A DNA stretch of 50,045 bases, counting the filler, from Dirinaria sp. TL-2023a (lineage: Eukaryota), in assembly GCA_051941275.1 (NCBI GenBank). It is 2 parts of 2 records of this genome, joined end to end, with 100 filler letters (N's around TTAATTAATTAA, not from the genome) between each part and the next. Parts side by side here need not be neighbours in the genome. Positions count along the whole stretch, not along the records: positions 1 to 25,010 come from JAVEBF010000179.1; 1 more part is not named here. One strand, written 5' to 3'. Both the position numbers and the translations under genes were made by a program. The notes under the pieces were generated by a model. That model made no database searches, was not told the DNA's origin, and saw only the letters and a list, made by a program, of their open reading frames with translations. Of the stretch, positions 4,498-25,010 are shown piece by piece. Position 1 is the stretch's first letter; the number at the start of each line of letters is the position of its first letter.

Positions 4498-5879
4498 TTA
4501 ATTTTTAGGATTCCACAGTACCTCGATAATACTGAAAGAGCTTCCCTCTGACCTAGAGATATTGTGGAGACAAAAGCGTTCGTCAGCCGCTTCGAATAAA
4601 TGAGCCCAGTCAGCCTTTGTGCGCTCGGCACTGTTGAAGCAGGCCGCCATGACCATGTCTACGTTTCTATATAACAATTACGTCAGTCGAGCCCTTTTCA
4701 AACAAGGGATCCGCGTTTGAGGATAGACATACGGCCCCATTTTCTCCGTCAACTGTGTCTCTGGCATCTCGTCAAGCACGTATTCATAGATGAGGACCCG
4801 CGAGTCTTTGCGCATTGCTGGAATTAGGCTTCGCAGCATTTTTATGCAGTACGGGTCGCTCCAGTTGTGCATGATCCATCGGAAGAAATATATAGTAGAA
4901 TCTTTCAGCGTCTGCTCCGTGAAAAAGTCATGCGCCATAAACTCGATCCTTCCTTGAAGTTCTTCCGAGAGGGATGCGCGGCCCTGTTCGACTGTGCCAG
5001 GGAGATCCTGTACGATAAATCTTATGTGCTGCGTTGACTTGGCCAAGAATTTTGATATACTACCGTTGCCACCACCCATGTCCACAAGCGTGACACCTGG
5101 ATGATCAACAGAGTTCCAGTCGAAGCTCAAGAAGAGATGCTTTAGGTCCCACCTTTCGCCTTTAGTGAAAAACCGCATACCAGCACCGAAGCGTCTGGCG
5201 CGTTCCGGGTGCTGAGCGAGGAATGGAAAAATAGACAACGAAGTGTCATTCGCTATACTGAAGGCCGACTCATTTGGTTCTCCCGAGTCACCGTACCGGT
5301 TCAAGGCCTCAATTACTCTACCCGCCGCCGGCCCAAGCTCTGCAGTCTCTAATCCGATAGCATCAAAGAAATCGGGGTCTGTAATCATCATCCGCGAAGC
5401 TGCTGTATGTCGCACGGTGTCTGGAGACACTTGTGCGAAGATGTGATTTCCCATTGCGTGTCGCATGAATCGCCGAACGAAAGCCTGAGGTAGGCCACTT
5501 TTCAACGAAATTTCCTTGTATGTTGTAGATCCGTTGATCGGAACGGCGTGAGCGAGCTTGAATTCGTATATGACTCGTAGTGACAGGTTCTCAGTCCACT
5601 GTTCTCATGCTAGTATGGGCCTTCGGACCGCAGTCATAGTCTGAGAGAGCGTACATTTAGTATGATCTCCATTGAACTGCCAACGGGACCCTGAGATAGC
5701 TGTTTCAACGTCTGGGTTGAATTGATAAGTGCATTTTTGCTGGCCTCAAGCTCCGATGGCAAGGTTCCGAGACTATTGTTATCAAAAGACGCGGGCTCCA
5801 AATTGTGAGTTGAAAGGTGCTGGTCAAGACGCTTCGCATTCTCGAGTATCTCCTCAGCCAACGAGGTTAAAGGCCCCAT
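4498..5879 (-). CDS. Fungal SAM-dependent O-methyltransferase (Methyltransf_2 family, secondary-metabolism type), 3 exons
   Basis: Exons 5879-5655, 5598-4733 and ~4666-4498 with GT..AG introns; motifs LVDMGGGNG, IVQDLP, HDFFTEQ, FRWIMHNWSD and the C-terminal DMVM..FNSAERT..DW. Confidence 0.92.
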
Positions 5880-8601
5880 GTTCGGTGAGGGTTAAAATGA
5901 GATACCAAAAACAGGAGCGAAAGCAGCCTGAGACAGCTGTTGCAGGTTGTGTCCAACTCAGAAATCCATGGGATTTTCCGAAGAGGACTCGGCAGCTGTC
6001 GGCCTTCTTATATATTCCTACTTCTGGAAGCACACTGCCTCTTCTCGGGAGCGGCAATTTTTGGCAGGATTCGACGTTTAGCTTGGGCTTTAACATCGGG
6101 CTTGCAGTAAGCGTAGACGAGGGCGCCAATCAAATTTGAGTTCGCAGCACCTGTTACACTGTACCTAAGGTGCTACATTTCAAAATCAACCTGATTGACG
6201 CACTCCTTTAGGATTACTCTCCAAATTGTTTCGTCAAATGCCAACCATGAGTCGGCGTCCACTCTCTCCGCCTTTTCATCGGACGCCGGTGATACCGAGT
6301 CTAGATATGGGATGATATGTACCTAGCGGTTGGCAGCCTCAATGCATTTTTTCCAACTTCTATGAGAAAATACTCCAAGTCCAAGCCGAGTTGGCAGCCA
6401 AATAGAAGAGCTAGTGAAAGTAAGTAGACAAGTAGATCCGCAACCGTTGTCTTATTCGGCATTTGGATCCGTTAATCTGTAGATGAGCATTTTTTCATGC
6501 AGCAAGGCAATCCTGGAGGACGCACTACTGCTCATGTGATGCCGACATCTTCCGCCTGCCCAAGGACTTTGGTAAGATCAAAGTATTTGTCATCTGTGAA
6601 GGAAGAAAGGATTTAGTAGAAGTACTGAGCCACGTCTAGCGTTGTCTTAGGAGCTGACTACCGTCAATCTTAAAGAGGAAAAAAAAAGCAGTGTGATTTA
6701 GCTTAGATGCTCGAACCTTGCGAAGCATCGGAAAATCATTTGGCCGAGATAATTGATAATGGGCTGCCCTTAGGGTTAGTAGAGGGCTATTGACCAATTA
6801 AAGGCGGTTGGAAAGCTGCTTACAGAGACATTCCTACCAAAGAGTCTGAGACATGGATCAACCAAATCTTCAGCTTCGATGTGCTTTAAAAGAGCCGTGA
6901 TAAAGTTTTACACGCGGCGCCATCAATTGAAAAAGCCGTCCGATGCTGGAATAACAAAGATTGAGACGTTGAATGCTAGAGTGATGAGGTAGGTCGTTGA
7001 ATTAAATTGTCATATCTCACTGCTTCATGAATTTGCTAATATGCTTTATAGCAGAGGCAGGTATAGTGTTGAAAGTGAATTCCCCGCTGATTTTGCACTC
7101 ATATACAGGAACAGAATACCCATAAGGCTTAACGTCTTTTCAGCTCCCCCAAGCAAACAGCAGTGAAATTGGTCCGAGCAGACACTTTGAATACAATCTC
7201 CTGTTCAAAGGCCTAGAAATACGTAGCAGCAGAATGAAATGTGCCAATGGCGAGGCGTCTAGTGGAACATTGGCCCTTCATAACAACAAGAATGTGTGAC
7301 CCGCTAGTAGCCCCAAAAAAAAAAGGTTTGAACGATCGATGAGGGCCACTCCGTGTTCGAAAGATGTCAGACTATTCTGACTTTGTTGGTGTATCCCGAC
7401 CTGCATGGTTTTCAATTGTTCATTGATATTGTAAATGTGAACGTGGATGCCGTTTCATTCCGATGCGAATCTATCGAAGTCATCACAGAGCGATCTCACG
7501 TACTCGCCGCCCGCGTTCTACACATCGTTCAATCCGTTATGATTTAGCTGCTTATTCGGTTCCATGGCATTCCAGCTTCTAGTTGTTCAGAAAACAGAAT
7601 CTTGGGCATTGGAATGTTCGTCTGACGGCACGAGCGACGGACCAGAAGAATCCTCTCTAGCTATTAGTCGGAATTCTATCTTATCACACAACGCGGTAGC
7701 AGAGATGGCCAAGGCTTCCCTCGGTTCGAGCAAACGATCACAGTATCTGTCAGGGCCGTGCCCTACAGATTGGCGCCTCAATTCTGTTTATAACCCTATC
7801 AGGCTACGAGCGTCGATCCCGGGCGCTCGCTCAAATACAACGCTGGTCAGAAAACCCCTGTCTCTTGCAGGTCTCTCTAGATATAGGACAAGTTCTCGAG
7901 GTTCCGTTGTATCGAGTTCAGAGTTGCACAGTGCACATGCAGCCTCGAAACAGATCGCGTCTGGTTCCACTTCTCGTGCCCGTGTAATAGTAAACGCCTT
8001 GTGTCTTAGTTTCTTCTGACGCCTTTTGCTCGAACATTCGAGTAGAGATCTCGCCGCCGAAGATCTCTTTATCTCTTTTTCGAGGTCCTCTAAGTCTTAT
8101 TCTTCTCCCTTGTTGGGATCCTAGCTTATGCTTGATCAAGTCTTATCGGAGTCCGTCAACCGAAGCTCTTCCGCGCTATTCTCTGTGGAAGTCTCATTTT
8201 CTTATGAAATCCGAAGCTTGGCTTTCTCACGAGTCCATTCCTTTCCTCATCCGGATGATGGGTTCGAAGGCATGACGAGGTGTAGGATATCTGTGTCCAA
8301 ATGCTGCATCAGCGCTCCAGCAACAGAAAGTAGCAACGGAATGCGAACAAATCTACCTGTATTTCGGATTGCCCTCATGTGCAGGATCCAAACAATATTC
8401 TTCAAATGCCTCCATTGCCTTCTCGGCACCTTTACGCGACGCTGCTGCCGTAAGTAGGGCATGGTGATCCGAGAATCATCTGTCTCATTCGGCTTCCAGA
8501 GTACCGCTGCCTAGGTACTTCGTAAAGGGTCATGATCGTCTGGCTAGCAATCTTTTGGACATTTCCGTCGGTTGATGGCTGTGGCTTGTGAAACCGTCAG
8601 C

Positions 8602-8862
8602 AATAGAAGCAAGCAAAGGAAGACTTCAGTACTTTTAAGTCCCCTGGCTTTCGGACTCGCGCGGGATTTCTTGCTGATTGTGATCGAGACCTCGTGCTCC
8701 TTCTCGAACACTTCATGAATTGCCTGGTTGGTTGATGGGAGCGGCTGGCGGAGTCATCAGCAAAAGAAGCAAGCAATGGAAGACTTTCATACTTTGTACG
8801 CCCCTGGCGTTTAAATCCGCACGAAATTCCTCGCTTACTGTAAGTGAGCTCCTTCTCTTGAA
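8602..8862. repeat. Two diverged ~100-bp direct repeats about 160 bp apart
   Basis: AGAAGCAAGCAA(A/T)GGAAGACTT...CCCCTGGC at ~8605 and ~8765. Confidence 0.7.
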
Positions 8863-9249
8863 GTCCTTTCTTCTTGATCGGTTCGCGTATTATTTCTCCA
8901 TGAGCTCGCTCTCTGCACTGTGAGTCTAATTAGCGTTTCCTAAAGAGTAAGAGGTTGAAAGTGACTTACAAAGCTGATGAGCGGATGAGGATAGCATAGT
9001 GGCCAAGGTTGCACTGCAACCAAGCCATGAAAACGGTTCTTTCCTAGACTGGATCCGAGCTGCGATACTGTTCTGAGCTCCTGTCAGAATCACTAGCGAT
9101 GAGCATCTGTAGTCAGCATAGTGACCAGAGATGTGCTGCAATCAAGCCGTGAAGAAGGTTCCGTCCTTCAGCCACGGATGTGATACAGCTGTGAGCTGGT
9201 CTTGAGTCGCGATAGATGTCAATCATTTGCTGATGGAGTTTGTAACACC

Positions 9250-10095
9250 TCTTCTAACATGAGCTTCGAAGCCAGCTCTTTGTTCCATCCAATGCTGCCC
9301 TATTGGTCCAAGCTCTTGCCAGAGTCCCTGTAGGGGCCGGTGCATCTGACCCTAAGTTCTAAGACCCCTTCTTCAAGTCGAGCTTCGAAGCCGGCTCTTT
9401 GTTCCATCCAAGGCTGCCTCAAGGCCGCCTTGTTGATCTGAGCTGTTCCCAAGATCGCTACAACGATCAAAACGGTGGCTAAGATCCGATCATCATGTTG
9501 GACGCGACGCCTCAAGTCGATTCTGTTCTTCATGTGAGGCTGTGGTGTGGTGCTGAGCTCTTCTTGGAAGGCTGTGGAGGCCAATGCATTTGCTGCTAGA
9601 ACCTCGTTTAACACTGGCTGCAAGCCGGCCCTGCGCCCCGCTTGATGCTGCCATATTACTCTGAGCCGTTCATAAGATCTCTGCAGCGATCAAACTGGTA
9701 GCTAGGATCTAAGCATCTTCTTGAACGCGATTTCTGGAGTCGATTCTGTCCTTCAAATAGGGATAGCGTACAGCTCTGAGCTCCTCTTGAATCGCTGTAG
9801 GAGCTGTTGAGCCTGCTGCTAGAATTAAGGATTCCTTCTTTAACTCGAGCTTCGGAGCCGGTTTTAGACTTCATCGAAGACTGCCTTGCAGATCCATCGC
9901 ATCTGATGTCGAAGATCCAAACCACCTTCTTCGACGCGGTCTTTGAAATGAACTCAGCGTTGTCAGCGACGACGACGTTGTTCAGGATTCTTTTCGGGGT
10001 CGCCTCATGGGCAGATGCATTTGCCGCTAGGATTTGCGGCCTCTCCTTGGCATGAGCTTTGAAGCCGGTTCAAGGCTCCATCGAAAGCCGTCTTA
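9250..10095. repeat. Dispersed ~40-bp degenerate repeat, 4 copies
   Basis: GAGCTTCGAAGCCGG...CATC..AG.CTGCC-like units at 9261, 9380, 9847 and 10054. Confidence 0.75.
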
Positions 10096-10708
10096 ATGAT
10101 CCTAGTTGATGTCAAGGTCGTTGCATTGACCAAAATGGTGGTTCAGATACATACCATCTCCTTTTTTTTAGCGCGATATTTGAAACAGGTTTGCGCTTTG
10201 GCGGCCGCGATGTTGATCTGAGATCTTGTCAGAGTCGCTGAATAAAATCAACATGAACATGTTCGCTGACATTGGCAGCATGTTCCTTTGACAAGAGCTT
10301 CAGAATGCCGAGAAGGTAGAGTCAAGATTTGCGTTAAGTGATTGGAGTTGAGTTACACAAGTGGAAAAGAAACAGGCGCGAATATAGTTGTGGCTTCTCT
10401 GAGGACTGTGCGATTTTGTTCTGAGATCGCTCATTCACGATTATATTACAAATCGGCGTGCTCGTTCAAGCCACTGAGCTAGTCAATGTATTCATCGAGA
10501 ATCGAAGCGTGTTCTTTGACACGATCTCCAGGATCCGATGCTTTGTTGAAAGAATGTCTCATTTCGGCTGTGGAACCAATACCTGTGCCTCGTTCATGAA
10601 GGTGAGTTGCATTTGGTTGTGAGGAGCAGATGCAGACTGAAATACAGATCCTCTGGCGATTTTTGCAGTTTGGTCTTGGGATCAGTCCTGTGTCTTCTGC
10701 AACATTAA

Positions 10709-10954
10709 TCAACATGCTTGTCGAAACCGCTGAAGTTGTCTATTCGTGTGCTGAGACTCAAAGCACGTGGTTTGACATGGTATGTAAAGCATCGCTCTCT
10801 TTGTTAGCATGTCATTGTCTAGTTCTAAGACCAGAATCGGGCAAATGTGATGAAGCTTGAGTTCCATAAATGGTTGAGGAGGAGGAGGAGGAGGAGGAGG
10901 AAAAGATGCAGTCTGAATGAATAACGACGCAGTCAGGCTAGCGACAAACAACAT
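10709..10954 (-). CDS. Possible small secreted protein or pseudogene with a poly-Pro tract
   Basis: MLFVASLTASLFIQTAS resembles a signal peptide and is followed by a (CCT)n-encoded poly-Pro run; the downstream exon structure could not be resolved. Confidence 0.3.
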   Translation of the reverse strand: MLFVASLTASLFIQTASFPPPPPPPPQPFMELKLHHICPILVLELDNDMLTKRAMLYIPCQTTCFESQHTNRQLQRFRQAC

Positions 10955-13492
10955 TCTGAATGACAACACAATAATACCTCCTGGAATGAGATTGCTTTGG
11001 TATGCTCTCTAAGACAACAGCATTGCTGTTATCTGCCTTTGTTTTAGATTGCTTTCAAGCTTTGACATTAACTTCAAGAATATTCCTATTCCAGGGAGGT
11101 CTTAGCATCATTTTTTGATTTTCACATAGCTACTTCTCCATTCAAAAAAGTCTTGAAAACTCATGTATAAGGATTTGAACCAGCAAATGCCCACAGGGTT
11201 CGTATCAAACCAAAGTCAAGAGACTCTTCTGATATCTAGTGACCATCTTCTCCCTGTGACTTTGGCTCTTACCCAATTCTAGATATATTCTCTCCTCATT
11301 TTGATCAATATCATGACTTGTGCTCATTTCAAGGTCATATCACTAGTCAGTATGAGCGTTCAATTATACTGTGTCTTCTGCCGGTTGTATAATAGATAGA
11401 AACTCTTGACATGAAGGAGGATTTACCATCGCTGCATATCGGTGTACATGCTGAAGAAGCCATGTTGGCGTAGAATATCAACATTGTGGCTCCCTCTTCT
11501 ATAACGAGTCTGAGTTCAGCAGGGCGAATAAGACTCGTAAAATATTCGGAGTATCGTAATTTTCCACCAGCGTACTAGGCACTCTATGTGCGCTTCACGG
11601 ATGGATGATAGCTGTTTGAATGGTGTGAGTTCTAGTAATGGTTGCCTTCAATAGAGATATTGTCATAGTACTTTCTTCCGACGGTGCTTGATATGGGAAA
11701 GTTGAAGTAACGATGCTAGATACCTAGATTATTGATATGTTATAAAGAAAGACGGAACGAATCGTTAGACTTATGTGGATTGAAGCTGAAACACTGACAA
11801 TCTAGAGACTACGAGCAGAGACGCTCTTAACATTCTGCATACTAAAGCAGCGGCTGAATAGCAAATACATGCCAGGTACTGTACCTTCAGAGCATCCGAT
11901 CCTGCTCTAGAAGTCCTCAGTTGAACGGGCGTTGAACAGAACCATTGTTGGTGGGTGATCAATCCAGCTTTAACGTCCAAAATGGTCACATCTTTAAAGA
12001 TGGCATTTCTCAGTCCCACATGCTGGCACCAAAGTTCATAACTCCAGCCTGCCGGCTTGCGTTAACGCATCTGCGTAGAAGAGTGATTTCGAGATTAGTA
12101 GCATTTCTCGGTTTCAAACGCTCGTTGCGTCGTCGTACTCGCAATTTGAGGAATCATGCACGGACAGAAATGATAAGTCAGAGGAAGTCAGATCACTGAA
12201 GCCGAGTCACTTAAGGCACTCGTGAGTCTTGGATGGTCTGTCTATCCATCGAAGTGAAAGCCGATGATCAAGATCAATTTAGGCTTGGATCCTTTCAAAT
12301 TATCTGCAAAGTTTCAGGCAGAGTATGACAGAATTTGTGAGCCGAAGAGAGGAGAAAGGAGAGAATTGTGTGAAACGAATCGAGATCGAGATGTGATATA
12401 TTATATAGTACGCGGTTTCGGCTGCGAACCGACTCAGAGGTTGGAAATGAGACAGGAACTAAATCCGTTATAACGTGATTTCAGGAAAGAGAAACATTTT
12501 TCACTTAGGAAACTTAAGAGTCAATTGATAGAGCATTATACACTCTACTCTTCAACATAGGTCAGAGGTTCGATTCTACGTCTCTTCCTATTTTCAGGGT
12601 AGATTTCATCCCCCTCGAGGACATTTTTTCTAGGAGATAAGTAGATCTACCACCTTTTCAAGGATTCAGATGAGCGTATTCGAGCCGCTCCCAGATTCAG
12701 CTGTGGTATTGCTCAAGAAGAGGCGAAGAATCTTTCGTATTGATCAATGCTGGAGCAAGACATTTCTCCATACTATCGTTGATCGAGTCACTTTTCTCTT
12801 CGCTTCCCGAGTCTTTGCAAATCCTTTTTGTGCATACAACCGTATGTGTTAATAGACGAATAACAGTTTCTAAAAACGCACAACCGAGTTCAGTGATGAT
12901 TTCGATGATTCTTTTTCATTATCTGGAGACACGGAGACTAAACATAGAAATAGGATGTCGATCGAGTAATCTCGACTGTCTGGCAATTGCAAGCACCGCA
13001 CTCGACTGACGAATGCGAAAGGCATGATTTTGGTAGTACCAATAGATATTTGTCAACATTGACAATGCTGAAGTTGATTTTGGTGGAGTCGTGGCTGGTG
13101 ATATTGTTGTTGCTGAAGCAAAAAATTTACAGTAGACTTTGGTGATGCTGATGATATTACCAAAGTCTATACCCTCCACAAGCTTTTAGTCTTTGACATC
13201 TACTGCTTCAAGGTAGAAGTACTTCTTGACTGCTCCATAAAGCCGAATGCAGCTAGCACGAATGACAGATATTCTCATGAAGTACATTGAGTATCAAGTC
13301 AGAACATGCTGTCAAGCTGACTATCTTCATTGAAACGCAGATCCTCGATTGATAGTATCATATTCGGAACCGGGCTCGTCTCTTCGCATATTCTTGATGT
13401 ACGAGCCTATAATATCAGCGAGTTCTGCTCGAGACCTCTTTTTGAGATTCTTCCGCTGTCTCCAAAGTCTTTTGGTTCTTGGTCGCCGTGGC

Positions 13493-13729
13493 CTACAGTA
13501 CTTGGTCATAGGAATGGTCCACGGTCAAGAAATAAATATAGCAAATCCAGGTCTGGCCAATGCGCAGGACCAGGCCAGCCGCCTGCAGGGCGGTCTGGGC
13601 ACTCGAGGGCAGATCTACAGAGATGACCTCGGAACAGTCGGGTTGAAGATTGTAAGCCGTGCTGGAGATCCGCTGGCTGGTAACCAGGCAGTTGACGGGG
13701 TTGCCCTTGTCATTGAACGCATTTATAGA
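13493..13729 (-). pseudogene. Remnant of a superfamily-2 (SNF2-like) helicase C-terminal domain
   Basis: Manual translation FNDKGNPVNCLVTSQRISSTAYNLQPDCSEVISVDLPSSAQTALQAAGLVLRIGQTWICYIYFLTVDHSYDQVL* fits HelicC motif V (xNLQ) and motif VI (QAxGRxxRIGQ, here with R changed to L); in-frame TAG at 13493-13495. Confidence 0.7.
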
Positions 13730-14379
13730 GGATATAAACCCAGTCGTTTAAATGATTTAAAAAAAAAAAAACAAAATGAACGGTTGATAGTGACGAGCAG
13801 AGTCTTGTATTTCAACCTCAAGCTCTAAAGGTTGTGTCAATCAAGGTCCTCCGTGATGTCGCATCGTGCAGCGGATCATCTCTCCAGAGGGTTACTCTCT
13901 TCCAAGTCGACTAAGATGAGTATTTCGAGTACATTTCTTAGCTCTTCTAAATGAGCAAGGTCAAAAGCGCCCACCGCAATTGAGATATCTTGCCGTATTT
14001 GAGATGAGCTATGATCGCTCCTGGCGAAGACCACAAGCGTTCTTGACAGACTCACGGTACACTGCCTTCGTTATAGCGGAGAAAGTACTTGCGCATTCGA
14101 ACTATCTACGGGCAGAGAGATGTTCGGAAGGATTAACAATTCCTGTTAAAGTTGTTGATTCTTTCCAAAATTGATGGACATTCGTCCTCATCTAGCGCTG
14201 GTTTGTAGTGGTAGTGGCTTTTGCCGAATCTTTTTCACCTAAGCCAAGGGATGATGAGTTGGCCATTTCGACGTCGAGAATAAAGCTGACGTAAAGACGT
14301 AGCAAGAACGAAGCATTGCAGCAAAGCAGAAATGAAACCTACCGGACCACGCCACGAGCGCCCACGCAAAAGAAGCTTC

Positions 14380-14675
14380 GTCCCCTTCTCTGGCCGCGGT
14401 GCGGACGGCGGCAGCAAGGCCGGCAGCTGGATCGACCTCGCACCGGTGTTTGCTTGCGCTGCAATAAGCGCGCTTCGTCTGGCGAGCGCCAGACGGGGCA
14501 ACACACCGGTGGCGGCGATCCACCGCCAACCTCGCCACACACCGCCGGCATCAGGCGAGGGGTTCCTCGCCGGCTATCACATCATGTTAGCCCAGCTCCT
14601 TCTCAATATGCCTTGTGTACCTACCTGCGGCGAAAAGTGGCACTCTGGGGGAGGGGGAGCCAGGAGAAGGGGTCG
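14380..14675 (-). ncRNA. Candidate highly structured RNA of unknown class (GC-rich island)
   Basis: Closing helix 14382-14394/14659-14672, long rod 14406-14453/14498-14547, hairpins at 14456-14471, 14476-14495 and 14554-14571; the rod gains multiple G-U pairs when read on the minus strand. Confidence 0.5.
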
Positions 14676-15339
14676 CCAGATGTGATATCTTGCGTATAAA
14701 GCACAGACGTAAGTTATTACCAACGACTGAAATAGCGTCTTGACACAATTGAGCAAGTTTAAATTTGCTACAGTGCTAAACCGTGCTGAGCAACTCATGA
14801 TTTCTGGATCGAAGAACCTCTTCAAATGTCTCCATTTGATTTACGTTGACGTTTGTCATCTCCATAGACTTGTCGCTTTCATACTTCTTGTCTTGAAGAA
14901 ATTACAATCTTATATCCCCTAATCCTAAGCGACTGCAAAATCTGATCATATGTGTGATTCACTGTCAGAATCCAGATGAAACATGTTCGACACTGATCTA
15001 ATCGAAGGACGGGATCAGAGATTTAGTGCGTTCTGGGAATTAGTAAGAACGTCGACAAAGATAACATTTGAACAACATTCGTGAAGATTTAAGATTGTCG
15101 CATGGCAGAGATACGAAAATATCAATTTAAAGAATATGCCAACATGCACTTTTCAAGAGAAGTATACGATATTGCTCACTGATCTTCTTGTACTATATTC
15201 GTTAATGATCATGTGAATCATTTATCGAAATCCAATGATCCATCCAAAAGCTGTCTTCAGAAATACCTGAAAGTTGAGTTCTGAAATCAAAGATCGTGTT
15301 CTCCGTTAAATTGCTTATTAAGTGGCGGTGAAACATCTA

Positions 15340-15755
15340 TAATCTGTAGGTGTTAGTCCGCAGTAGTCATTTGATACCATGTGTATCAATTTATATCCAA
15401 GATTCGTTCAAATTCCTCTTAGATTTTCCTCTAATCCTGAACAATGCGTCTGATCAGATTGTGCAGAGGTCAATCATTTCCTGAATTGTCCAAGTCTTCA
15501 TAATGTTTGGTATAGTCTTCATCGGTTCGAATGACTATTCTAATGAGAGCTTGTGATTTTTCTTCGTAAAGTTCATTTGTCTTGCGTTTATCAAGAACAT
15601 CTGTAGCTTTCATCATCTCGAAGTGCTTTAATGTTGCTTAAAATCTAATATTTCTGAATTCTTCCTCTGCATGAGCTGGGATATGAGGGTCACGATTGTT
15701 CCAATGACTATGCCTCACTTCGATGGCTATTTTTAATTGAAAAGCATGTTAAACT
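15340..15755 (-). pseudogene. Pseudo-exon with multiple C-to-T-type premature stops
   Basis: One frame reads HAFQLKIAIEVRHSHWNNRDPHIPAHAEEEFRNIRF*ATLKHFEMMK...SGND*PLHNLIRRIVQD*RKI*EEFERILD; CTGAC..CAG and CTAAC..CAG intron-end signals lie on either side. Confidence 0.55.
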
Positions 15756-17342
15756 GCAGCGATGCATCGTCAGTAAATTTCGTTAAGACAAAAGAGTCGG
15801 TCTATGACTCGCAGAGTATAAAGTAATTGATTAGTATCAGCTTGTGTAAAGGTTCAAAGACTAAGTCAAAAGAAAAACTCTGGTCATGGAATTGCGACGA
15901 GACAAACCTGGAGGATGAGATTGACCGTGACATCGTACGCATCATTGTGATGATCACCGTACACGAAAGAAAGAAATGCCGACCATTCACAGAACAAATA
16001 GAACTTTTATCGTGGCTTGCTCTTCGGAGTCACAGAAACCACTTTCAGAGTTGAAATCACGACTGGAAATGAGTATAAGCTAGGAAATGTAAGTATGAGG
16101 ATAATTAGGTAAAGGAATGAGTGAAATCAGCCAGTGTATATAGTATATCAGACGGTTGTAACGCGATAATCTATCGTTCGATGCAGTAATTGGATACAGA
16201 ATAGCCTGCATTGTTGATTGCCGTACTGCGAACAAGTGAGTTGTTGGTTTAATAGAGAAATTTTCGGTGACTGTTTCCACAACGAATCCTCACTGGTCAA
16301 TTAATAGTTGAATTATATAGTCTTGGTCATGTTTCCTACCCTGGACCACTGTTTAGAGAGTAGATCGGTTATCAAATATCTTGTTCTTTCTGGGTGTGCA
16401 ACGAAGCCGTATTTCTCGAAGCAGCATATCATGTGTAACGCCGAGCTACAAATTTCTTTTCAAGATCACAGTACTCTGTCTTGGAGCTTTCTTGAGCAAT
16501 CTTTATCCATAGAAGTAAATGCAATAGTAAGATTTTGGCCCTCAGTCTTCTCCAGGGCGCGGAATCCAACAAAGCCTGCTCTTGGAACCTGTATTTGCCG
16601 GACAGGCGTATCATTAGACCTTGATGCTGCAGAATTCATGGCTTTATCAATCCACCTCCATCGAAAGCATATCTCAAGGCCGCCTGATTTGCAATGAAGA
16701 CGACGAGATAAGTAAGAGCTTCCTGGCAATTGGTATCGGTATCGATGCTGTGTGCCACTCCAAGTCGACTAGGTGGTGCACTAAAAAATTCTGTCTCTGA
16801 AATGAACCACGTTGTTGCAGTGCATGACGCGGCTTCAGCCACATCTGGCATGAATTGAAGTCGTGAAGCCGTTACAAGACAACATCGGTTAGCGAAGTGT
16901 CGACTTCACCAAAGAGCTCATACTGGGTCTTTAGAAACCTTTGATGGGACTGTTCTGCTAAAGCCAGGTGATTTTAAAGGCATGTTGGAAAGAGTCAACT
17001 AGTCTCCCGCGATTAGCTTCCAGATACATGAATGGTAACTTGTTGTAATACTCGTGCAAAAGCTCCTCTCTATCCAGTCAGAACATGAAAAGAATTGTAA
17101 ACACGTAGATAGCTCTTTCTAGGGTCCTGAGCGTCGGCAAGGATTGATTCACCGCGCAGTTCGGTTGAGATAAGTGAAGTTCAACAGATGAACACGCACA
17201 TCATTCCGGCTGGCCTAACCGAATCATGGCACTGCCTTTGGCTCGAGTGAAGATTGATTCAGAAACAGGAAGCAGTGAACGCCATCGTACCTTGAATTAC
17301 CCCCATATACACATGCGCTAGATCCACACTAAATGTCGCTCA

Positions 17343-19691
17343 TCATTTGTACATATCTACACTGGCCATTCCACCCTGAGATGCTATGGCCTCCTGCCGG
17401 TTATGCTCAGGGACTATCTCCTCTAAAGATGATTCGTGTTCAGGAATAGGAAGCGGCTGCTCATCTTTCAGTGCCGGCTCCGATTTATGCTTCTCTTCCT
17501 TATCACTAACGAGTATACCCAATTCTTTCAGCATATTCAGCTCTCTCAATGTCTTCAGCTTTTTTCTTCTGTTTGCATGTGAAGCATGTGAAGCATGAGC
17601 CAGAACCTCGTTGATCTTCTCTTCTACAATGTTTTTAACGTATAATGCCATATCTTGGTCCTTGAAGACACCAACAAAGCGATAGCCGAGCCAGAGATAC
17701 AGGATCAGACCTTTATGTAATTGCTCAAGTTCAGCAAGGTACTCTCTGTTCGTAACATTCACAGAGGTTTCCCTGTCTAAGATATCAAGGTTCAATTGAG
17801 GAATATCTAGAAGAGCGCCGCTAGTGTTGTTAGCGACACACTTTGCGAAAGCGACGACGACGTGATCAAAATTGCCGCGCTTCACAGAAGCTGGAGAAGC
17901 ACAAAAAATAATGCGGTCGCGGACGGTAAGACCCTGAACGCTCTCGATTATGTCGGCGATGGCGATCTGCTCTCTAAGTTGACAAAGGCGGTATCGCGGA
18001 TGCACAGACGAGATTTCGTTCAAGCGGGCAAGGATATAACTAAAGGGAGTTCCGGGTGGGTAGTAGGCAGCAAATCGCATCAGTACGTCTGCAGGTGGCA
18101 TAATGACAGCGCTCATGACGGGTTCGGCCTCTGTTTGCATAGCTTGATGCACACGCGCATAGTCCATCTGCTCTAATGAGGTGACCAGGCCAGCAGATTC
18201 TCCCGTGGGCGCGATGCTCGTCTTTGATGAGTCATCAGGAACGCCGTCGCCCACATTTTCGTACGGCTGAGTCGGTATTTTGCTTTGCGGTGCTACACGG
18301 TAGCGGCCTGCACGCCCTGCTATTTGCTTCAAGTGCGGTATTGTAATTGGCTCATACTGCCTCCCGTCGAATTTCCATGTGGACTCGAAAATAATCCGTT
18401 TGATGTCCAGATTGAGGCCCATGCCGATTGCATCACTAGCTACGAGGTAGTCGTAGTCGTTGTCGGGATCGTTGAAAAGCCTCGCCTGGCTCGCCCTTGT
18501 TTCAGGGGGTAGACTTCCATAGACAATAGCAACCCGTTTCCCCGTCTTCTTCTCAATCTCGGTCTTGAAAGCGTGAATCTCCTTCCTCGAAAAAACGACT
18601 AAGCAGTCTCCTTTGTGAAGGTGCTTCAAGTTGCCATGCAAGCTTCGAGGAGCTGCTTGTAAAGGACTCAGCCGTTCGTAATGGTGCAATACGATCTTTT
18701 CTCCCATTTGGGCCGCGATCTCGCGTATGAGGGGCACAGTTCTTGCTTCTCCGCAGAGATGTAATTCTTTAGCTCTCAAGCCTAGAAGTGCTTGAGTCCA
18801 CGCCCATCCTCGGTCATCGTTTCCTACCATTTGTATCTCATCAATAATGCCCACATCTACTACTTTATTTGTTGGTACCATCTCAACTGTACAGCTGACC
18901 ATTGCATTCTCCTCTTCACTGTACCGTTTGTCATCGCCCGTGATCAGATGGCAAGGCTTTCCTTTCGCATTCAACCTTGTGTAGACTTCATGAGCGAGCA
19001 GCCTTAACGGGCCTGCATATATACCCGATTCTGCCTGCTCTAGGCGTTGGAGGGCTCGGTAGGTTTTCCCGGAGTTTGTTGGGCCGACATGGAGGTGTAT
19101 GGTGCGTTGAACCGTGCGTGTACCAGGAAACCATTCGACAGGATATCTGAGATCGGCGAGGTCCGTTTGACTTTGGAGGGTGGCGGGAGTAAACTCACGA
19201 TTGGCAACCTCGCCAAAGACAGTGTATCGAATTCGCGACTCCAGGCCGGGACGACCATTTTCCACAAACGCGTTGTGGAAGGATTCCAGCACCTTCTCCC
19301 ATTTTTGAGCCTTAGGGCCGTGAGGTGTTTGAAAAGCTTCTCGCACTTCCAGCGCGAACTTCCCGGCATGCGGTATCTCTGCAGTCTTTGCGAAATTTTC
19401 CAGCTTCTGACAGACCAGCTCCCGGAAGTCTTCGTCGGTAACCTTCTTTCGATATTCTACTTTTGCCCGGGGTCTGAAATGGAGATTTGAGAAGATGGAC
19501 TCATCTGCGGATGGTGAACGATGATTGCGTTTCCGTGCCTGTAAAGAAAGACATTCTGAAAAGTAGCGCCGTGCTTTGAGTGCATTAGCAACAGAGGTAA
19601 GACTTATTATGGCTGCGGAAGCGTAGCAGCTACGATAAACTTGACCAAAGTTGAGGACATCATGAGCGGCCGTCCGAGCGGGCGTAAGCAT
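17343..19691 (-). CDS. SUV3: Mitochondrial ATP-dependent RNA helicase Suv3
   Basis: HVGPTNSGKT (motif I), GPLRLLAHE, IDEIQM, ASDAIGMGLNL and QIAGRAGR; a short in-frame intron near the 5' end is possible. Confidence 0.96.
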   Translation of the reverse strand: MLTPARTAAHDVLNFGQVYRSCYASAAIISLTSVANALKARRYFSECLSLQARKRNHRSPSADESIFSNLHFRPRAKVEYRKKVTDEDFRELVCQKLENFAKTAEIPHAGKFALEVREAFQTPHGPKAQKWEKVLESFHNAFVENGRPGLESRIRYTVFGEVANREFTPATLQSQTDLADLRYPVEWFPGTRTVQRTIHLHVGPTNSGKTYRALQRLEQAESGIYAGPLRLLAHEVYTRLNAKGKPCHLITGDDKRYSEEENAMVSCTVEMVPTNKVVDVGIIDEIQMVGNDDRGWAWTQALLGLRAKELHLCGEARTVPLIREIAAQMGEKIVLHHYERLSPLQAAPRSLHGNLKHLHKGDCLVVFSRKEIHAFKTEIEKKTGKRVAIVYGSLPPETRASQARLFNDPDNDYDYLVASDAIGMGLNLDIKRIIFESTWKFDGRQYEPITIPHLKQIAGRAGRYRVAPQSKIPTQPYENVGDGVPDDSSKTSIAPTGESAGLVTSLEQMDYARVHQAMQTEAEPVMSAVIMPPADVLMRFAAYYPPGTPFSYILARLNEISSVHPRYRLCQLREQIAIADIIESVQGLTVRDRIIFCASPASVKRGNFDHVVVAFAKCVANNTSGALLDIPQLNLDILDRETSVNVTNREYLAELEQLHKGLILYLWLGYRFVGVFKDQDMALYVKNIVEEKINEVLAHASHASHANRRKKLKTLRELNMLKELGILVSDKEEKHKSEPALKDEQPLPIPEHESSLEEIVPEHNRQEAIASQGGMASVDMYK

Positions 19692-20141
19692 CCCCAGTTA
19701 GGATACTACTCTGGTGATTGGGAACTTGTTAGGTCTGTACCCAAGTTGCGGAAGTACAATTCAATCATTGCACGAGTTTGGCCACCAGGAACGACCAGGA
19801 CCTCGGGAGCTCTCACCGTCTCAATTATTCACTCCCGGCGAAACGAAGCGCCGGCTTGGCGTTCACAAGCCCTCGTACCTTAAGCCACCACTGCCACGGC
19901 CACAGCCACACTGCCACCCCTCCCCCTCCAACTGCAACTGAAACCGACAATATTAATGTAGACTCTTCATTTACGAAACCTGAGACTCCTTAACCGGTCA
20001 ATCTCAGAAAGAGAATTGCATGCGACAAGCTAGGTGGAAGCAGAAACCAATCTTAAATCCTCTCGGTCCTTTACCGAAAGTCCCCGTGGTGAAAGCGCTC
20101 TGAAACTCGCTCCGCTGTGACAGAAATAATTCGCCAGCACT

Positions 20142-22583
20142 ATGGTTGAGAGTTCCGCCATTGCGATCCTCGAAGACGGTACGCTATCTCAAGGGATCAT
20201 GATTAAACACGTCTCACCATATTCTAGTCATACTTCAGACGGTCCGCGGGACGGCTCGAGGAGAAGTACGCAAGCCCAGCTTCTTCCCAAACCTGATCGC
20301 GTTGCCTAATGGTCCGACTTTAGTGGAAGGTACTCGTGCTAGACGAGGGCAGCAAGAAGCTAATCGATTCGGTCTGCAACGAAGATGATTTACTGGAGGA
20401 GAATATCACAAGTGGGTAGAAGAACCTCTGAGCCTCGGTTCGAGAAAGTCGCTGAATCAGTGGCAGACATTGAGCAGATCGAAGACAGAAGGCCTATGAA
20501 CAAAGAGATGGATGCCATCTACATTCTCTCACCGCTGCCGCATATCGTCGACTGTTTGGTGGCAGATCTTCAGAGACAGAGATACAGAAAAGCACATCTG
20601 ATATGGACCTCAGGTTCGTCCGCCTTCAAAGCAGAGAGCTAGAAATCCGAAATACCGATACTAAAGAGCGGTTGTTCGACAGTCCTACCACGGGATCAGC
20701 GCGCAAAATTAGACCAGTCGGCAATGGCTAGAGATCAAATCGCACAATTGAAGGTCCTCAACATTAACTTCTATCCGAGAGAATCGCATCTCATTACTTT
20801 CAGAGATCCTTGGAGCTTCCCCATGCTGTTCCACCCTGCCTGCAATCAGTTGGTGCGGAGACATATGGACGACCTGGCACAGAAGGTGATTGATTGAATA
20901 ATACCCATGCGAAATCCCAAGTGGGAGCTGACCCTGATTCTGAAGATTGTATCGATCTGTGTCTCGTTAGGAGAGTACCCTGTAATTCGATATCATAGCC
21001 CTAGGAATCCAAGCCATGAAGCAAGCGTCTTGTGTTCACACTTGGCTCGCTTCGTGCAATCTGCTTTGGACGAGTACGCCCAATTTCACCAAGACTTTCC
21101 ACCCGCCTCGAATAGACCTCGTGGCGCACTTTTTATTACCGATAGGTCGATGGACCTTTTCGCTCCTCTACTACACGAGTTCACGTATCAAGCCATGATC
21201 CACGACGTACTCCCGCTCATCGATGGAGATAGAGTCTTCTACAAAAGTCAAGATGAGGCCACAGGTGCTCCCAAACAAAGCGAAATTTCCGAAAAGGATA
21301 AGATCTGGGTCCAAAACCGTCACCTACACATGAAAGATCTTCTTGAGAAGCTGGTCAACGACTTCAATAAATTCCGTGCAGAGAACCCCCAGTTTGAAGC
21401 CGACGCCGGGACTCAAGGCAGCACCATCAGCAACCTCAACAACATCAGAGACATGCTTGCGGGCTTGCCCCAATTCCAAAAAGGCAAAGAAGCATATGCG
21501 CTGCATCTTGGCATGGCCCAAGAGTCGATGGATATCTTTCAGGCGCATAAGCTTGGCGACATAGCATCTGTTGAGCAATCGTTGGCTACTGGGCTGGACG
21601 AGGATTATAAGAAGCCCAAGAACATGGCCGACCAAGTGGTGCGATTACTGGATGATCCAGGTCTATCATCCCCGGATCGATTACGACTACTGTTAGAATA
21701 TATTCTTTACCGCGACGGCCTACTCCCTCAAGACATACAGAAGCTGCTTGCGCATGCTCAGTTACCTGCTCAAGACGGTGAGGTCGTTTACAACATGGAT
21801 CTCTTGGGTGCGCACGTCGGCAGAGCGATCAAAGATCCCCGGCCGCTGGCGACGACCCGTGCAAACCGAATGCAGCCTCCTCCGCCCAATTCGGACGATT
21901 CAGGCCTATCGAGATACGACCCCGTGCTCAAGACAGTGCTTGAGGACCATATCCGAGGGGCGTTGGACCAAGCCTACTTCCCCTTTACCAAGCCACACCT
22001 CGACGCGGCTGAAGGCATGCTGGGGGCTGATACGACCGCTCAGTCATCCTTAAGGAGTGCGAAGCCCACATGGGCAAGAACGCGGCCGTCAGCAAGAGAG
22101 CCACAGCAGCGGATCATTGTTTTTGTCGCCGGAGGAGCGACGTACTCGGAGGCAAGAGTCTGCTACGAGATTTCGGAAATGTATTCCAAAGACGTGTTCC
22201 TGGCCACCTCGCACATGCAGACCCCGAGCCTGTTCCTGCGACAAGTGGGGGACTTGAGCGTGGACAAGCGGCGTTTGAACCTTCCCATCGAGAGGCCGAA
22301 GCCAAAAGCCCCTGATCACTTGTTCGAGCCGGAGAAGCCGCCAGCAGCTCCACAGCAAGGACCTGGTCCACAGTCAGGCCCGCGGCAAGCACCGCAGCCA
22401 CCGGCCACGGCCATGGCTGGATTGAACCTGGGCGGAAGAGCGGCGAACGGTTCTGCAAATGGTCATCCTTTACCGACTCTTCCTCAGTCAGAAGCCTCTT
22501 CTTCTCTAGGAAAGCCGTCGAAAAAGGAGAAAGATGCGGGGGAGAAGAAGAAAAAGCATCATTTCTTCAGCTCGAAAAAGTAA
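20142..22583 (+). CDS. SEC1: Sec1/Munc18 family exocytic SM protein, multi-exon
   Basis: ATG at 20142 and five short GT..AG introns give WKVLVLDE, DAIYILSP, FYPRESH, SLGEYPVIRY, DRSMDLFAPLLHEFTYQAM and IIVFVAGGATYSE. Confidence 0.95.
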
Positions 22584-22880
22584 TGTAATGCTGGCACGGT
22601 TTCATCTTGGATGTGCTGAAAGTCACTTTGCGTCCTGCGTTTTTAGCGGCCTACCATAATGCATTTTTCCGTCATACTCTGCATTTGCGGGCGTCGGGCG
22701 GGAACTTGTACATAATTGAGATACCATATGCGTGAGATTTCTGGGGTTTTCTGAATAGAAAGATCCTAACAGGATGGATCCTCTTCTTCTTGGATTCAAA
22801 ACTAGCATGAGTACCCTCAAATGCATCAGCCTCTACCCCATCTTTGCATGCGGTACCCAGGACCATGAAATCAGCACGCA

Positions 22881-23639
22881 CTAGTCCGCCAAATACTTCT
22901 CCAAATCCTCGCTCTGATAGAACAGTTCCTGCAACCTCTCTCTCCTCTTGCGCTCCTCTGCATCTTTCTTCCTCACCCCTTTCGCATCCAACCTTTCCAC
23001 CCTCTTCTTCTTTTCAAGAACTATACCCTTCTTCTTCAACGCAACATCCATCCCTAATCCAACCGTATCATTCTTGATTCTCGGTTTCAGAGGCACCCTG
23101 ATCCCTTCCCCGTTCACCCCAAGCCCGCGCCTACTATCCGGATCCCACCCGTAGGACGAAAGATACTTCAGGCCTGCACGGCTGCGATCCAGATGGGACG
23201 GTGGGGTCGAATGAGAGAGACAGAATTGGTGGACGAGTGAGGTTTCATGCGGCTTTGGCGGCGCGGCGGGTAATTGAGAATCGGCGGTGGAGTGGAGGGG
23301 GAGGTGACAGATTTCACAGGTTGGGTTTTCTTCAGGAGTGGCACTGGGCTGTGATGCGGATTGCGCGGTGTCGTTGTGGGAGATATTATTATTATCGGTT
23401 TGAGCTATCTGTTGCCCTTTGCGCGGTAGGACGATGGAGAGGTAGCGGTCTCCGGCATTGCTGCTGCTGCTGCTGCTGCTGCTGCTGATCTTTGGCGCTG
23501 CGGTTGGTTCGTTTTTGACTGCAGCTGCGGGTACGAATTGGATGCGCTTTCTTTTGAGACCGGCTCCGAAGAATTTTTGATTCTGTAGAGGGTTTCTGTT
23601 TGGTTCTTCTTCTTCTTCTTCTTCTTCCTCTTCCTCCAT
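22881..23639 (-). CDS. G-patch domain protein (GPANK1-like)
   Basis: G-patch GLKYLSSYGWDPDSRRGLGVNGEGIRVP preceded by a CEIC..H..H zinc-finger-like segment; poly-E and poly-S tracts come from trinucleotide repeats. Confidence 0.85.
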   Translation of the reverse strand: MEEEEEEEEEEEPNRNPLQNQKFFGAGLKRKRIQFVPAAAVKNEPTAAPKISSSSSSSSSNAGDRYLSIVLPRKGQQIAQTDNNNISHNDTAQSASQPSATPEENPTCEICHLPLHSTADSQLPAAPPKPHETSLVHQFCLSHSTPPSHLDRSRAGLKYLSSYGWDPDSRRGLGVNGEGIRVPLKPRIKNDTVGLGMDVALKKKGIVLEKKKRVERLDAKGVRKKDAEERKRRERLQELFYQSEDLEKYLAD

Positions 23640-23994
23640 GATCTGTTTGGTAGAAGATGAATAGGGCGTTTATGTAGCTCAGTGACTCAAGGCTGATGAC
23701 GAAATAAGTTACGATGCTAGATTGATAAGATAACAAAATTACCAGCTTTTCTTTCACTTTAATTGGCAAAAGCTTCCGGTTTCTCCACGACTGTTGCTTC
23801 CCTACTTCCTAAGTCCACCTTGAAGCTTTGGGCAGGTAGAGACCAGGCATCTCTCCGCGAATGCATTATTCAAAGATCAAGCAATCATGCTCTCCTTAAA
23901 AAAGCCTAGGGAGACCCAATTGGGCACCTCAATGCTCCTTCAGGCTCTTTAGATATCACCCTGTCCGCAAGTACCGCGAGAGACTGAACGCAAG

Positions 23995-25010
23995 ATGCCT
24001 ATCCCAATCCTAGGCGACATCATCTCCAAAGGCCTATACAATGTCCCATACGCTGTGCCTACCCTGAAAACAGTAGCATGTCTCCTCGCCATCTATCTCT
24101 TGAAGCTCTACTTCGGCGGCGCAAGCAACAACTCCGAGCGTCTTATGCGCTCCAAAGTGGTCATGATCACCGTAATGACAGCCCTGCTCACCCTTTTCCC
24201 ATGACTAACATACTCAGGGTGGAACATCCGGCGTCGGCGCCTCCGTAGCCCATGAGCTCGCGTTGCGCGGTGCAAGCGTAATTCTACTCACACGTCTTCC
24301 GCCCTCGGACCCGTTTCTTGTCGATTATATAGATGATATGCGTGCCACTACCAAAAATCAGCTCATCTACGCAGAGCAAGTGGATCTGTCCTCCCTCCAT
24401 TCTATCCGCCTCTTCGCTACGAAATGGGTCGACAATGCGCCGCCCCGCCGGCTAGACATGGTGATCCTCTGCGCTGACACATTCACGCCACGATTTGGGG
24501 AAAAGCTCGTCACCGATGAGAAACTCGAAGTATGCTGGGGGATCAATTACCTCGCGAACTTCCACCTCCTCAGCATCCTCTCCCCTGCCCTGCGCGCTCA
24601 AACCCCAGACAGAGATGTACGGATTGTGTTTACGACTTGTCCAAGCTATATCGGCGGAGATCTGAAGAAGCTTAAAGATACCCGCACTCCGCTTCCGCCC
24701 GGAAGGGAGTACGGCACCAGTAAATTGGCGACTATGGTCTTCGCACAGGCCTTCCAGAAACACCTGGACAACTACAAGCGCCCTGACAACCAACCCAACA
24801 ACGCGCGCGTCATCCTGGTTGATCCAGGATACAGCCGCACCCCGGGTATGCGGCGCTGGCTTACCATGGGGTCGCTATGGGGTCTGCTGCTCTATCTAGC
24901 GATGTGGCCCATCTGGTGGCTGATGCTGAAGTCTCCCATGCAAGGCGCGCAGAGCATTTTGCGGGCAACGATGGAAGCGGAGCTGGGGAGGGGCGTGGGC
25001 GGGAGACTCA
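23995..25010 (+). CDS. Membrane-associated short-chain dehydrogenase/reductase (YNL181W/Pbr1-like), 3' end lost at the gap
   Basis: N-terminal TM segment; the intron 24172-24217 joins VVMIT to GGTSGVG (Rossmann motif); VDLSSLHSIR, NYLANFHLL and catalytic YGTSK; frame runs into Ns. Confidence 0.88.

What the first reader, a model, noticed from the sequence alone, without database searches (positions are those of the whole stretch)
14380..14675. GC-rich island predicted to fold into a large multi-helix RNA inside a decayed AT-rich region
Seen: a 13-bp closing helix, CCCCTTCTC-TGGC (14382-14394) with GCCAGGAGAAGGGG (14659-14672), brackets ~290 nt. Inside it is a ~45-nt-per-arm rod (14406-14453/14498-14547) capped by two hairpins, GCGCT/AGCGC (14456-14471) and CGTCTGGC/GCCAGACG (14476-14495). 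Further hairpins are GGCGAGG/CCTCGCC (14554-14571), GGCTA/TAGCC (14572-14592) and GCTCCTTCTC/GAGGGGGAGC. On the minus strand, GGCGAGGUUGGCGG pairs with CUGCCGGCCUUGCU through five G-U wobbles, which suggests selection on an RNA rather than a DNA inverted repeat. The last helix favours the plus strand, so strand is not certain. No convincing ORF covers the island, and neighbouring DNA is mutationally eroded. I could not find the diagnostic motifs of SRP, RNase P/MRP, U1-U6, group I/II introns, hammerhead or HDV ribozymes. Inference: an unclassified fungal ncRNA, a telomerase-RNA-like three-way-junction arm, or a structured mobile/retro-RNA element.
Basis: partly seen in the sequence, partly recalled or inferred. 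Interest (0 to 1): 0.8.

Follow-up and report, generated by a model that had tools for sequence, protein, structure and literature searches.

The report
Orphan GC-rich hairpin-rich DNA island
A 296-base GC-rich stretch that can fold into an unusually stable bundle of hairpins really is there, lying between two dead helicase-gene fragments in a fungal-type genome, but nothing available here shows whether it is a small transposon relic or an unknown RNA gene.

Summary
Bases 14380-14675 are the GC maximum of the window (0.69 against a mean of 0.48). The stretch folds far better than dinucleotide shuffles: z -5.7 on the + strand and -8.3 on the - strand. It is also the strongest GC-corrected folding outlier among 337 windows.

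The identity is unresolved. I found no Rfam family, no tRNA, no coding signal, no protein relative and no telomerase template. There is no second copy in the window, and no relative in 884,591 bases of related fungal contigs, in phage and plasmid collections, or in a metagenome 25-mer scan. No whole genome and no sequencing run could be reached, so copy number and transcription remain untested.

With G-U pairs forbidden the two strands fold equally well, and the strand difference is ordinary. The neighbourhood is decayed: there are two SNF2-helicase C-terminal pseudogene fragments in a non-syntenic zone. It is not RIP-mutated.

My best guess, at 0.4, is a short non-autonomous (MITE- or foldback-type) mobile DNA element or its relic. 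The main rival, at 0.3, is an unclassified minus-strand structured RNA.

The parts
14380..14675 (.). The island: a 296-nt, 65.9% GC, self-contained multi-helix folding domain
14379..14394 (.). Left arm of the closing helix, or terminal inverted repeat
   Evidence: 12 nt, 92% complementary. extend it to 13-14 pairs with one bulge; it matches the right arm with 1 substitution and 1 indel in 15-16 nt, and has no other copy in the window.
14659..14675 (.). Right arm of the closing helix, or terminal inverted repeat
14397..14553 (.). Long rod (arms 14397-14453 and 14498-14553) capped by two hairpins (14456-14471, 14476-14495). The inner part is Watson-Crick on both strands. The outer part pairs fully only on the minus strand, through nine G-U pairs.
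14554..14592 (.). Two short hairpins: a 7-bp stem at 14554-14571 and a 5+2-bp stem at 14572-14592
14595..14660 (.). Third side arm. Its pairing differs between the strands and is G-U rich on the plus strand.
14343..14379 (.). GC-rich extension left of the closing helix. On the minus strand it includes a run of four U (14371-14368) five bases after the helix.
   Evidence: Read directly from the sequence. That the U run acts as a terminator is inference only.
14695..14701 (+). TATAAAG motif 20 nt right of the island. It is oriented for plus-strand transcription away from the island.
   Evidence: Read. No functional evidence.
14798..15302 (-). Context: SNF2-family helicase C-terminal pseudogene fragment A
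   Evidence: tblastn (depth up to 97 of 150 query proteins)
13364..13858 (-). Context: SNF2-family helicase C-terminal pseudogene fragment B. It covers the same protein segment as A, and the two are about 58% identical in DNA.

Best explanation
The island is a discrete piece of palindrome-rich DNA that arrived in, or survived in, a decaying non-syntenic stretch of a fungal-type nuclear genome. Most likely it is a short non-autonomous DNA transposon of the MITE or foldback kind, or its relic. In that reading the 13-16-nt imperfect terminal inverted repeats are the ends a transposase would recognise. The internal hairpins are DNA-level inverted repeats, not a selected RNA fold. Shown here: the sequence anatomy, the excess of Watson-Crick self-complementarity on both strands, the absence of coding and of known RNA families, and the pseudogene-rich setting. 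Inferred: mobility, which needs copy number or an empty site.
For: (1) The size (296 nt), the lack of coding signal and the terminal inverted repeats that bound the folding domain all fit a MITE.
(2) The structural signal is strand-symmetric and Watson-Crick. With G-U forbidden, the folds are -144.5 kcal/mol (+, z -5.3) and -143.7 kcal/mol (-, z -6.4). DNA-parameter folds are also significant on both strands.
(3) The setting is where mobile DNA accumulates. The island sits between two dead SNF2 helicase-C fragments. This is a ~12-kb zone with no Pfam family above its curated cut-off in any of 43 ORFs. It lies just beyond the end of a Sec1-Suv3 gene order that recurs in many of the 80 related loci (42 loci carry Suv3 with at least one more of the tested genes), while none of the tested genes left of Suv3 in the window appears in those loci.
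(4) The helices are nearly intact and the GC is 66%, while the flanking pseudogenes are heavily decayed. This fits a later arrival.
(5) No known RNA family matches, even at E<=10.
(6) A 3-bp direct repeat (GTC) can be placed directly outside ends 14383/14671.
Against: - There is no second copy of the island or of its ends in the 50-kb window.
- None was found in 884,591 bases of related fungal contigs, nor in a metagenome scan with one exact 25-mer.
- Genome copy number could not be measured.
- The only target-site duplication candidates are 2-3 bp. They are also explained by the palindromic CG/GTC at the helix ends, so they are near chance.
- The GC-rich block runs about 37 nt past the left repeat, so the repeats are not a clean compositional boundary.
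- The architecture is a five-way junction with a rod and side hairpins, not the simple whole-length foldback typical of MITEs.
- From my own recall, 66% GC is unusual for a fungal transposon in a 48% GC genome.
- The terminal repeat resembles no superfamily signature that I can recall. This was not tested against a repeat library.
Confidence: 0.4

Rival explanations
1. An unclassified structured non-coding RNA gene of about 300 nt, read from the minus strand. The 5' and 3' ends pair, three small hairpins and a long rod capped by two hairpins radiate from the junction, and transcription ends at the U run just after the closing helix.
For: - The minus strand gives the best fold: -168.0 kcal/mol, z -8.3, and 5.1 sd below the GC-corrected expectation.
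- Nine G-U pairs make the outer rod continuous on that strand only.
- A UUUU run follows the closing helix by five bases on the minus strand.
- The domain folds on its own in a larger context.
- High GC and intact helices inside decayed DNA could reflect purifying selection.
- From recall, not from any call here: structural RNA genes stand out as GC-rich islands in AT-richer DNA.
Against: - No Rfam family matches at any threshold used.
- The strand preference is not statistically unusual and vanishes without G-U.
- A single-sequence covariance model of the rod found nothing in 934,636 bases of window plus related fungal loci. The best non-self hit was 19.3 bits, E 0.68.
- It lies in a non-syntenic, pseudogene-laden zone.
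- The only nearby TATA-like motif points the other way.
- Four U is a weak terminator and common by chance.
Confidence: 0.3
2. A hairpin locus that is transcribed as part of a longer RNA and processed into small RNAs (miRNA-like or siRNA). The ~55-bp rod would be the Dicer substrate.
For: A long, nearly continuous rod with few bulges on the minus strand. It sits among pseudogene fragments, where silencing-related inverted repeats are plausible (inference).
Against: No RNA data of any kind could be reached. The extra side hairpins and the closing helix are not needed for such a precursor. 69% GC in the rod is high for known fungal milRNA precursors (recall).
Confidence: 0.08
3. Captured or filler DNA: a fragment of foreign or ectopic GC-rich sequence joined in during break repair, with palindromes created by template switching and no function.
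For: It is single-copy in all the data seen. There is no clear target-site duplication. The GC-rich block is not exactly bounded by the repeats. The surrounding region is a mosaic of unrelated relics.
Against: No donor was found. Plasmid and phage blastn gave none. The prokaryote scan gave only one 27-residue match, which at DNA level is 23 nt at 83%. Viral scans gave none. The degree of nested self-complementarity (z -5 to -8) is hard to get from random filler.
Confidence: 0.15
4. An endogenised copy of a small, highly structured replicating RNA, either viroid-like or a mycovirus end.
For: Viroid-like size (296 nt), high GC, strong structure in both polarities, and ends that pair.
Against: No hammerhead, hairpin, HDV, twister or other ribozyme family matched at E<=10. 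There were no viral contig matches. There is no poly(A) or other mark of retroposition in the flanks.
Confidence: 0.04

Closest known systems
[quoted passage not shown]
   Same: Length of a few hundred bases, non-coding, imperfect terminal inverted repeats, strong single-strand folding on both strands, and a location in gene-poor decayed DNA.
   Different: No second copy was seen. There is no convincing target-site duplication. The architecture is a multi-branch junction and not a whole-length hairpin. GC is 66% in a 48% GC genome. The terminal repeat could not be assigned to any superfamily.
Signal recognition particle RNA (7SL / SRP RNA)
   Same: About 300 nt and GC-rich. On the minus strand it has small 5' hairpins followed by a long rod capped by two hairpins, the ends are paired, and a U run lies after the 3' end.
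   Different: No SRP covariance model matched, even at E<=10. The two apical loops are not GNAR tetraloops, and I could not find the conserved helix-8 loop motifs (motifs recalled; sequence). Here the 5' end pairs with the 3' end directly, and does not close the small hairpins as SRP helix 2 does.
GC-rich palindromic clusters of fungal mitochondrial DNA
   Same: GC-rich, hairpin-forming and apparently mobile islands inside AT-richer DNA (recalled).
   Different: Those are tens of bases long and mitochondrial. This island is 296 nt and sits between nuclear-type pseudogenes, in a window carrying nuclear genes (Suv3, Sec1, mitofilin).
Fungal telomerase RNA three-way junction
   Same: A GC-rich multi-helix junction.
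   Different: No template-like sequence lies within 6 kb on either strand. The flanks are unstructured and hold pseudogene fragments.

Membership tests
MITE / non-autonomous DNA transposon | Terminal inverted repeats at the element ends | tested here: met
   12 nt at 92% complementarity. 15-16 nt with 1 substitution and 1 indel.
MITE / non-autonomous DNA transposon | Target-site duplication flanking the repeats | tested here: inconclusive
   An exhaustive boundary search found only a 2-bp (CG) and a 3-bp (GTC) candidate. Both are near chance.
MITE / non-autonomous DNA transposon | Multiple dispersed copies in the genome | not testable with these tools
   No genome is held and no runs were listed. 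There are 0 further copies in the 50-kb window.
MITE / non-autonomous DNA transposon | Short (<~800 bp) and non-coding | tested here: met
   296 nt. GC by codon phase is 0.68/0.66/0.63, so there is no periodicity. No protein relatives were found.
SRP RNA | Match to an SRP covariance model (Rfam SRP clan) | tested here: not met
   cmscan of 14300-14760 at E<=10 returned only an 11.5-bit IRES_HCV hit.
SRP RNA | GNAR tetraloops on the two apical helices and the conserved helix-8 loops | tested here: not met
   The apical loops on the minus strand are GCUC and a 5-10-nt loop. The motif definition is recalled.
Telomerase RNA | Template complementary to about 1.5 telomere repeats, close to the structured core | tested here: not met
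   The nearest 8-mer permutations of the TTAGGG-type template are at 7791 (+) and 6777-6779 (-). The 9-mer with <=1 mismatch occurs 6 times against 5.6 expected.
RNase P / RNase MRP RNA, snRNAs, snoRNAs, group I/II introns, self-cleaving ribozymes | Match to the family covariance model | tested here: not met
   0 matches at gathering score in the whole window. Nothing relevant at E<=1 or E<=10 around the island.
tRNA or tRNA-derived SINE | tRNA-like head | tested here: not met
   ARAGORN found 0 genes in the window.
Protein-coding exon | Codon periodicity and protein relatives | tested here: not met
   1 of 6 frames searched in the large protein collection; Pfam, 5 island ORFs.
RIP-mutated repeat region (context claim) | TpA/ApT >= 0.89 and (CpA+TpG)/(ApC+GpT) <= 1.03 together (thresholds recalled) | tested here: not met
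   No 1-kb bin meets both. Bins 13001-16001 give 0.58-0.72 and 1.26-1.36.

The most novel reading that the evidence does not exclude
The island is the gene for a previously undescribed ~300-nt structured RNA. It would be read from the minus strand, with an SRP-like layout: paired ends, three small 5' hairpins, a long G-U-rich rod capped by two hairpins, and a U-run terminator. Selection on that fold would keep it GC-rich and intact inside decaying DNA.
Probability: 0.2. Interest if true: 0.65.

Novelty: new member of a known kind. Interest (0 to 1): 0.35.

Why it matters
If it is a transposon relic, it is an ordinary annotation item: a small GC-rich MITE-like family worth adding to that genome's repeat library. 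If it is a stable RNA, it would be a new class of mid-sized fungal ncRNA outside all 4227 Rfam families. Very few such RNAs have been found in filamentous fungi, so that would merit experimental follow-up. The present data cannot separate the two. The practical value of this report is that it removes the weak arguments (G-U asymmetry, telomerase likeness, RIP) and names the two cheap tests that would decide.

Tried and rejected
- Whole-genome copy search: no genome is held for this window.
- Sequencing runs for 14100-14950: none was listed, and no RNA holder was listed.
- Rfam: nothing at gathering score in the whole window. At E<=1 in 13000-16000 the only hit was a 20-bit cyanobacterial sRNA match at 13106-13170, outside the island. 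At E<=10 in 14300-14760 the only hit was IRES_HCV at 11.5 bits. All rejected as noise.
- tRNA scan: none.
- Bacterial-type promoter and terminator scan: none. It is of little relevance in a eukaryote.
- Telomerase template: rejected.
- Protein relatives of the + strand ORF 14290-14682: 104 word-sharing candidates, none at E<=0.01.
- Pfam on 43 ORFs of 5600-17400: only sub-threshold hits. One of them led to the helicase fragments.
- blastn against plasmids and phages: no match.
- Metagenome scan with one exact 25-mer: 0 hits.
- Degenerate-peptide scans: prokaryote genomes gave one 27-residue Streptomyces match. At DNA level it is 23 nt at 83% and was rejected as chance. Two frames against viral contigs gave none.
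- 80 Suv3-anchored fungal loci from metagenomes (best 66-70% protein identity): blastn gave one 17-nt match (E 0.077) and nhmmer gave nothing. The relatives are too distant to test conservation of a non-coding locus.
- Covariance model of the rod only (157 of 296 nt, one sequence entered twice): no hit beyond itself. The best was 19.3 bits, E 0.68, in three identical contigs.
- Searching the long contigs behind those loci: the records are not held.
- Tandem-duplication idea (helicase fragment plus island as a repeated unit): rejected. The two fragments share only ~58% identity over 154 nt, and nothing resembling the island follows fragment B.
- Literature: one full-text search (MITE, fungal, GC-rich, secondary structure) listed 3 papers, none relevant. 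Only the listing and abstract starts were seen.

Full report
**What is there.** Bases 14380-14675 are a 296-nt block of 65.9% GC. The DNA around it is 33-45% GC per 100 nt. In 200-nt windows the island reaches 0.69, the maximum of the whole 50-kb window, whose mean is 0.484 with sd 0.058.

- a closing helix, 14382-14394 with 14659-14672, which repeat finder extends to 14379-14390/14664-14675 at 92%;
- a long rod, about 14397-14453 with 14498-14553;
- two capping hairpins, 14456-14471 and 14476-14495;
- three further side arms, 14554-14571, 14572-14592 and 14595-14660.

**Is it more than chance?** Yes.
- As RNA, the + strand folds to -157.7 kcal/mol (z -5.71) and the - strand to -168.0 kcal/mol (z -8.30). 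In both cases 0 of 200 dinucleotide shuffles do as well.
- With DNA parameters z is -4.93 and -6.39.
- As an independent control I folded 337 overlapping 296-nt windows of the whole window on both strands and regressed energy on GC. The island lies 3.9 sd (+) and 5.1 sd (-) below expectation, and the next-best windows are at -2.1 and -2.4 sd.
- The domain is kept unchanged when 481 nt are folded.

**The RNA-versus-DNA argument.** The pairs exist: 14 G-U in the minus MFE against 9 in the plus MFE, with nine clustered in the outer rod. Two tests weaken the inference.
- The 10.3 kcal/mol advantage of the minus strand is ordinary. 44% of the 337 windows differ by at least as much between strands. 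After correcting for keto skew the island's difference is only -1.2 sd.
- With G-U pairs forbidden the two strands fold equally well: -144.5 against -143.7 kcal/mol, z -5.3 and -6.4 against 80 shuffles each.

So most of the signal is strand-symmetric Watson-Crick complementarity. That is what DNA inverted repeats give. The wobble-rich outer rod can be explained by a G-rich arm facing a pyrimidine-rich arm.

**What it is not.**
- Rfam gives nothing at gathering thresholds in the whole window. It gives nothing relevant at E<=1 in 3 kb or at E<=10 in 461 nt. This covers SRP, RNase P/MRP, snRNAs, snoRNAs, introns and self-cleaving ribozymes.
- There is no tRNA.
- There is no telomerase-type template within 6 kb.
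- There is no codon periodicity: GC by phase is 0.68/0.66/0.63, against 0.59/0.40/0.50 in the neighbouring Suv3 gene.
- There is no Pfam family above its curated cut-off in five ORFs that cross the island (only sub-threshold matches).
- The ATG-bearing + strand ORF has no relative in the 5.8-billion-protein collection (1 of 6 frames tried).
- 150 relatives of the neighbouring helicase fragment show no significant protein similarity inside the island.

**Surroundings.** The window is nuclear DNA of a fungal type. It carries Suv3 helicase, Sec1, mitofilin, a GMC oxidoreductase, an ABC-G transporter and an O-methyltransferase. The taxon is inferred from gene content only.

The island sits in a ~12-kb zone (about 5.6-17.3 kb) without recognisable genes. 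A weak Helicase_C hit at 13496-13747 (-) led to a full HMMER search. It gave 171 hits at E<=0.001. The full-length relatives are 1150-1440-residue SNF2-type helicases.

tblastn of those proteins shows two minus-strand fragments of the same C-terminal segment. Fragment A is at 14798-15302 and fragment B is at 13364-13858. They are broken by stops and only about 58% identical to each other in DNA. The island lies between them.

It carries no RIP signature, however: no 1-kb bin has RIP-like dinucleotide indices.

In 80 metagenomic fungal loci anchored on Suv3, the Sec1-Suv3 neighbourhood on the right is widely conserved. None of the genes on the left of Suv3 in the window reappears. The island therefore lies in a lineage-specific, non-syntenic zone.

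**Search for relatives.**
- No other copy of the island or of its ends occurs in the window.
- Nothing was found in plasmids or phages.
- An exact 25-mer scan of metagenome contigs gave nothing.
- Degenerate-peptide scans of viral contigs gave nothing.
- The prokaryote scan returned one short Streptomyces match. At DNA level it is 23 nt at 83%, so it is chance.
- The 884,591 bases of Suv3-anchored fungal loci hold no similar sequence.
- Those loci plus the window (934,636 bases) hold no structural match to a covariance model of the rod. The best non-self score was 19.3 bits, E 0.68.

Those relatives are only 66-70% identical in Suv3 protein. They are too distant to inform on a non-coding locus. 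Copy number, empty sites, covariation and transcription all remain untested.

**Weighing the readings.** In favour of a MITE- or foldback-type element or its relic:
- the size;
- the non-coding nature;
- the imperfect terminal inverted repeats;
- the strand-symmetric palindromy;
- the intact, GC-rich state inside heavily decayed DNA, which suggests a later arrival;
- the transposon-prone setting.

Against it:
- no second copy was seen;
- the only target-site duplication candidates are 2-3 bp;
- the GC-rich block overruns the left repeat by about 37 nt;
- the architecture is a multi-branch junction and not a simple foldback.

In favour of a minus-strand structured RNA:
- the best fold is on that strand;
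- the rod is completed by G-U pairs;
- the ends are paired and followed five bases later by UUUU;
- the layout loosely recalls SRP RNA;
- intact helices in decaying DNA could equally mean selection.

Against it:
- no family match was found;
- the strand bias is not significant;
- the locus is non-syntenic;
- no promoter evidence was found.

I put the mobile-element reading at 0.4, the ncRNA reading at 0.3, inert captured or filler DNA at 0.15, a small-RNA hairpin at 0.08 and an endogenised viroid-like RNA at 0.04.

**Verdict.** This is a real and statistically exceptional structured GC island of unknown nature. A genome-wide copy count and one strand-specific RNA experiment would settle it.

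Noticed in passing
window 13364-13858 (-) and 14798-15302 (-): Two decayed fragments of the same C-terminal segment of an SNF2-family helicase. Full-length relatives are 1150-1440 aa with SNF2-rel_dom plus Helicase_C. The fragments lie in the same orientation 1.4 kb apart and are only ~58% identical in DNA. No upstream helicase parts are detectable.
   Followed up: yes
window 520-975 (-): A GC-rich (0.63-0.68) intact ORF of 151 aa. It starts with a hydrophobic, signal-peptide-like N-terminus and has no Pfam family. It looks like a small secreted protein gene. It is flanked by long A/T runs, including a run of about 30 T at ~1010-1031.
   Followed up: partly
window 8567-10239: Diverged direct repeats. 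There is one pair of 122-nt copies 160 nt apart (8567-8848). There are also two families of 37-39-nt units (6 and 4 copies, 62-95% identity) at irregular spacings of 117-467 nt. They overlap minus-strand ORFs 9303-9689 and 9659-10069 and have only a sub-threshold DUF5892 hit. This may be a decayed repeat-protein gene.
   Followed up: partly
window 17343-25066 versus loci L001-L080: The gene order orf24209 / orf22881 / Sec1 / Suv3 recurs in many distantly related metagenomic fungal contigs (Suv3 45-70% identical). Conservation stops at the 3' end of Suv3. None of the window's genes to the left appears in those loci, so there is a synteny break at ~17.3 kb.
   Followed up: partly
window 41304-44699 (-): A 1131-aa ORF combining DUF6314 with C-terminal WD40 repeats.
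   Followed up: no
window 31200-35105 (-): A 1301-aa uninterrupted ORF with no Pfam family at E<=0.001.
   Followed up: no
window 14695-14701 (+): A consensus-like TATAAAG lies 20 nt right of the island and points away from it. No convincing ORF lies downstream.
   Followed up: no
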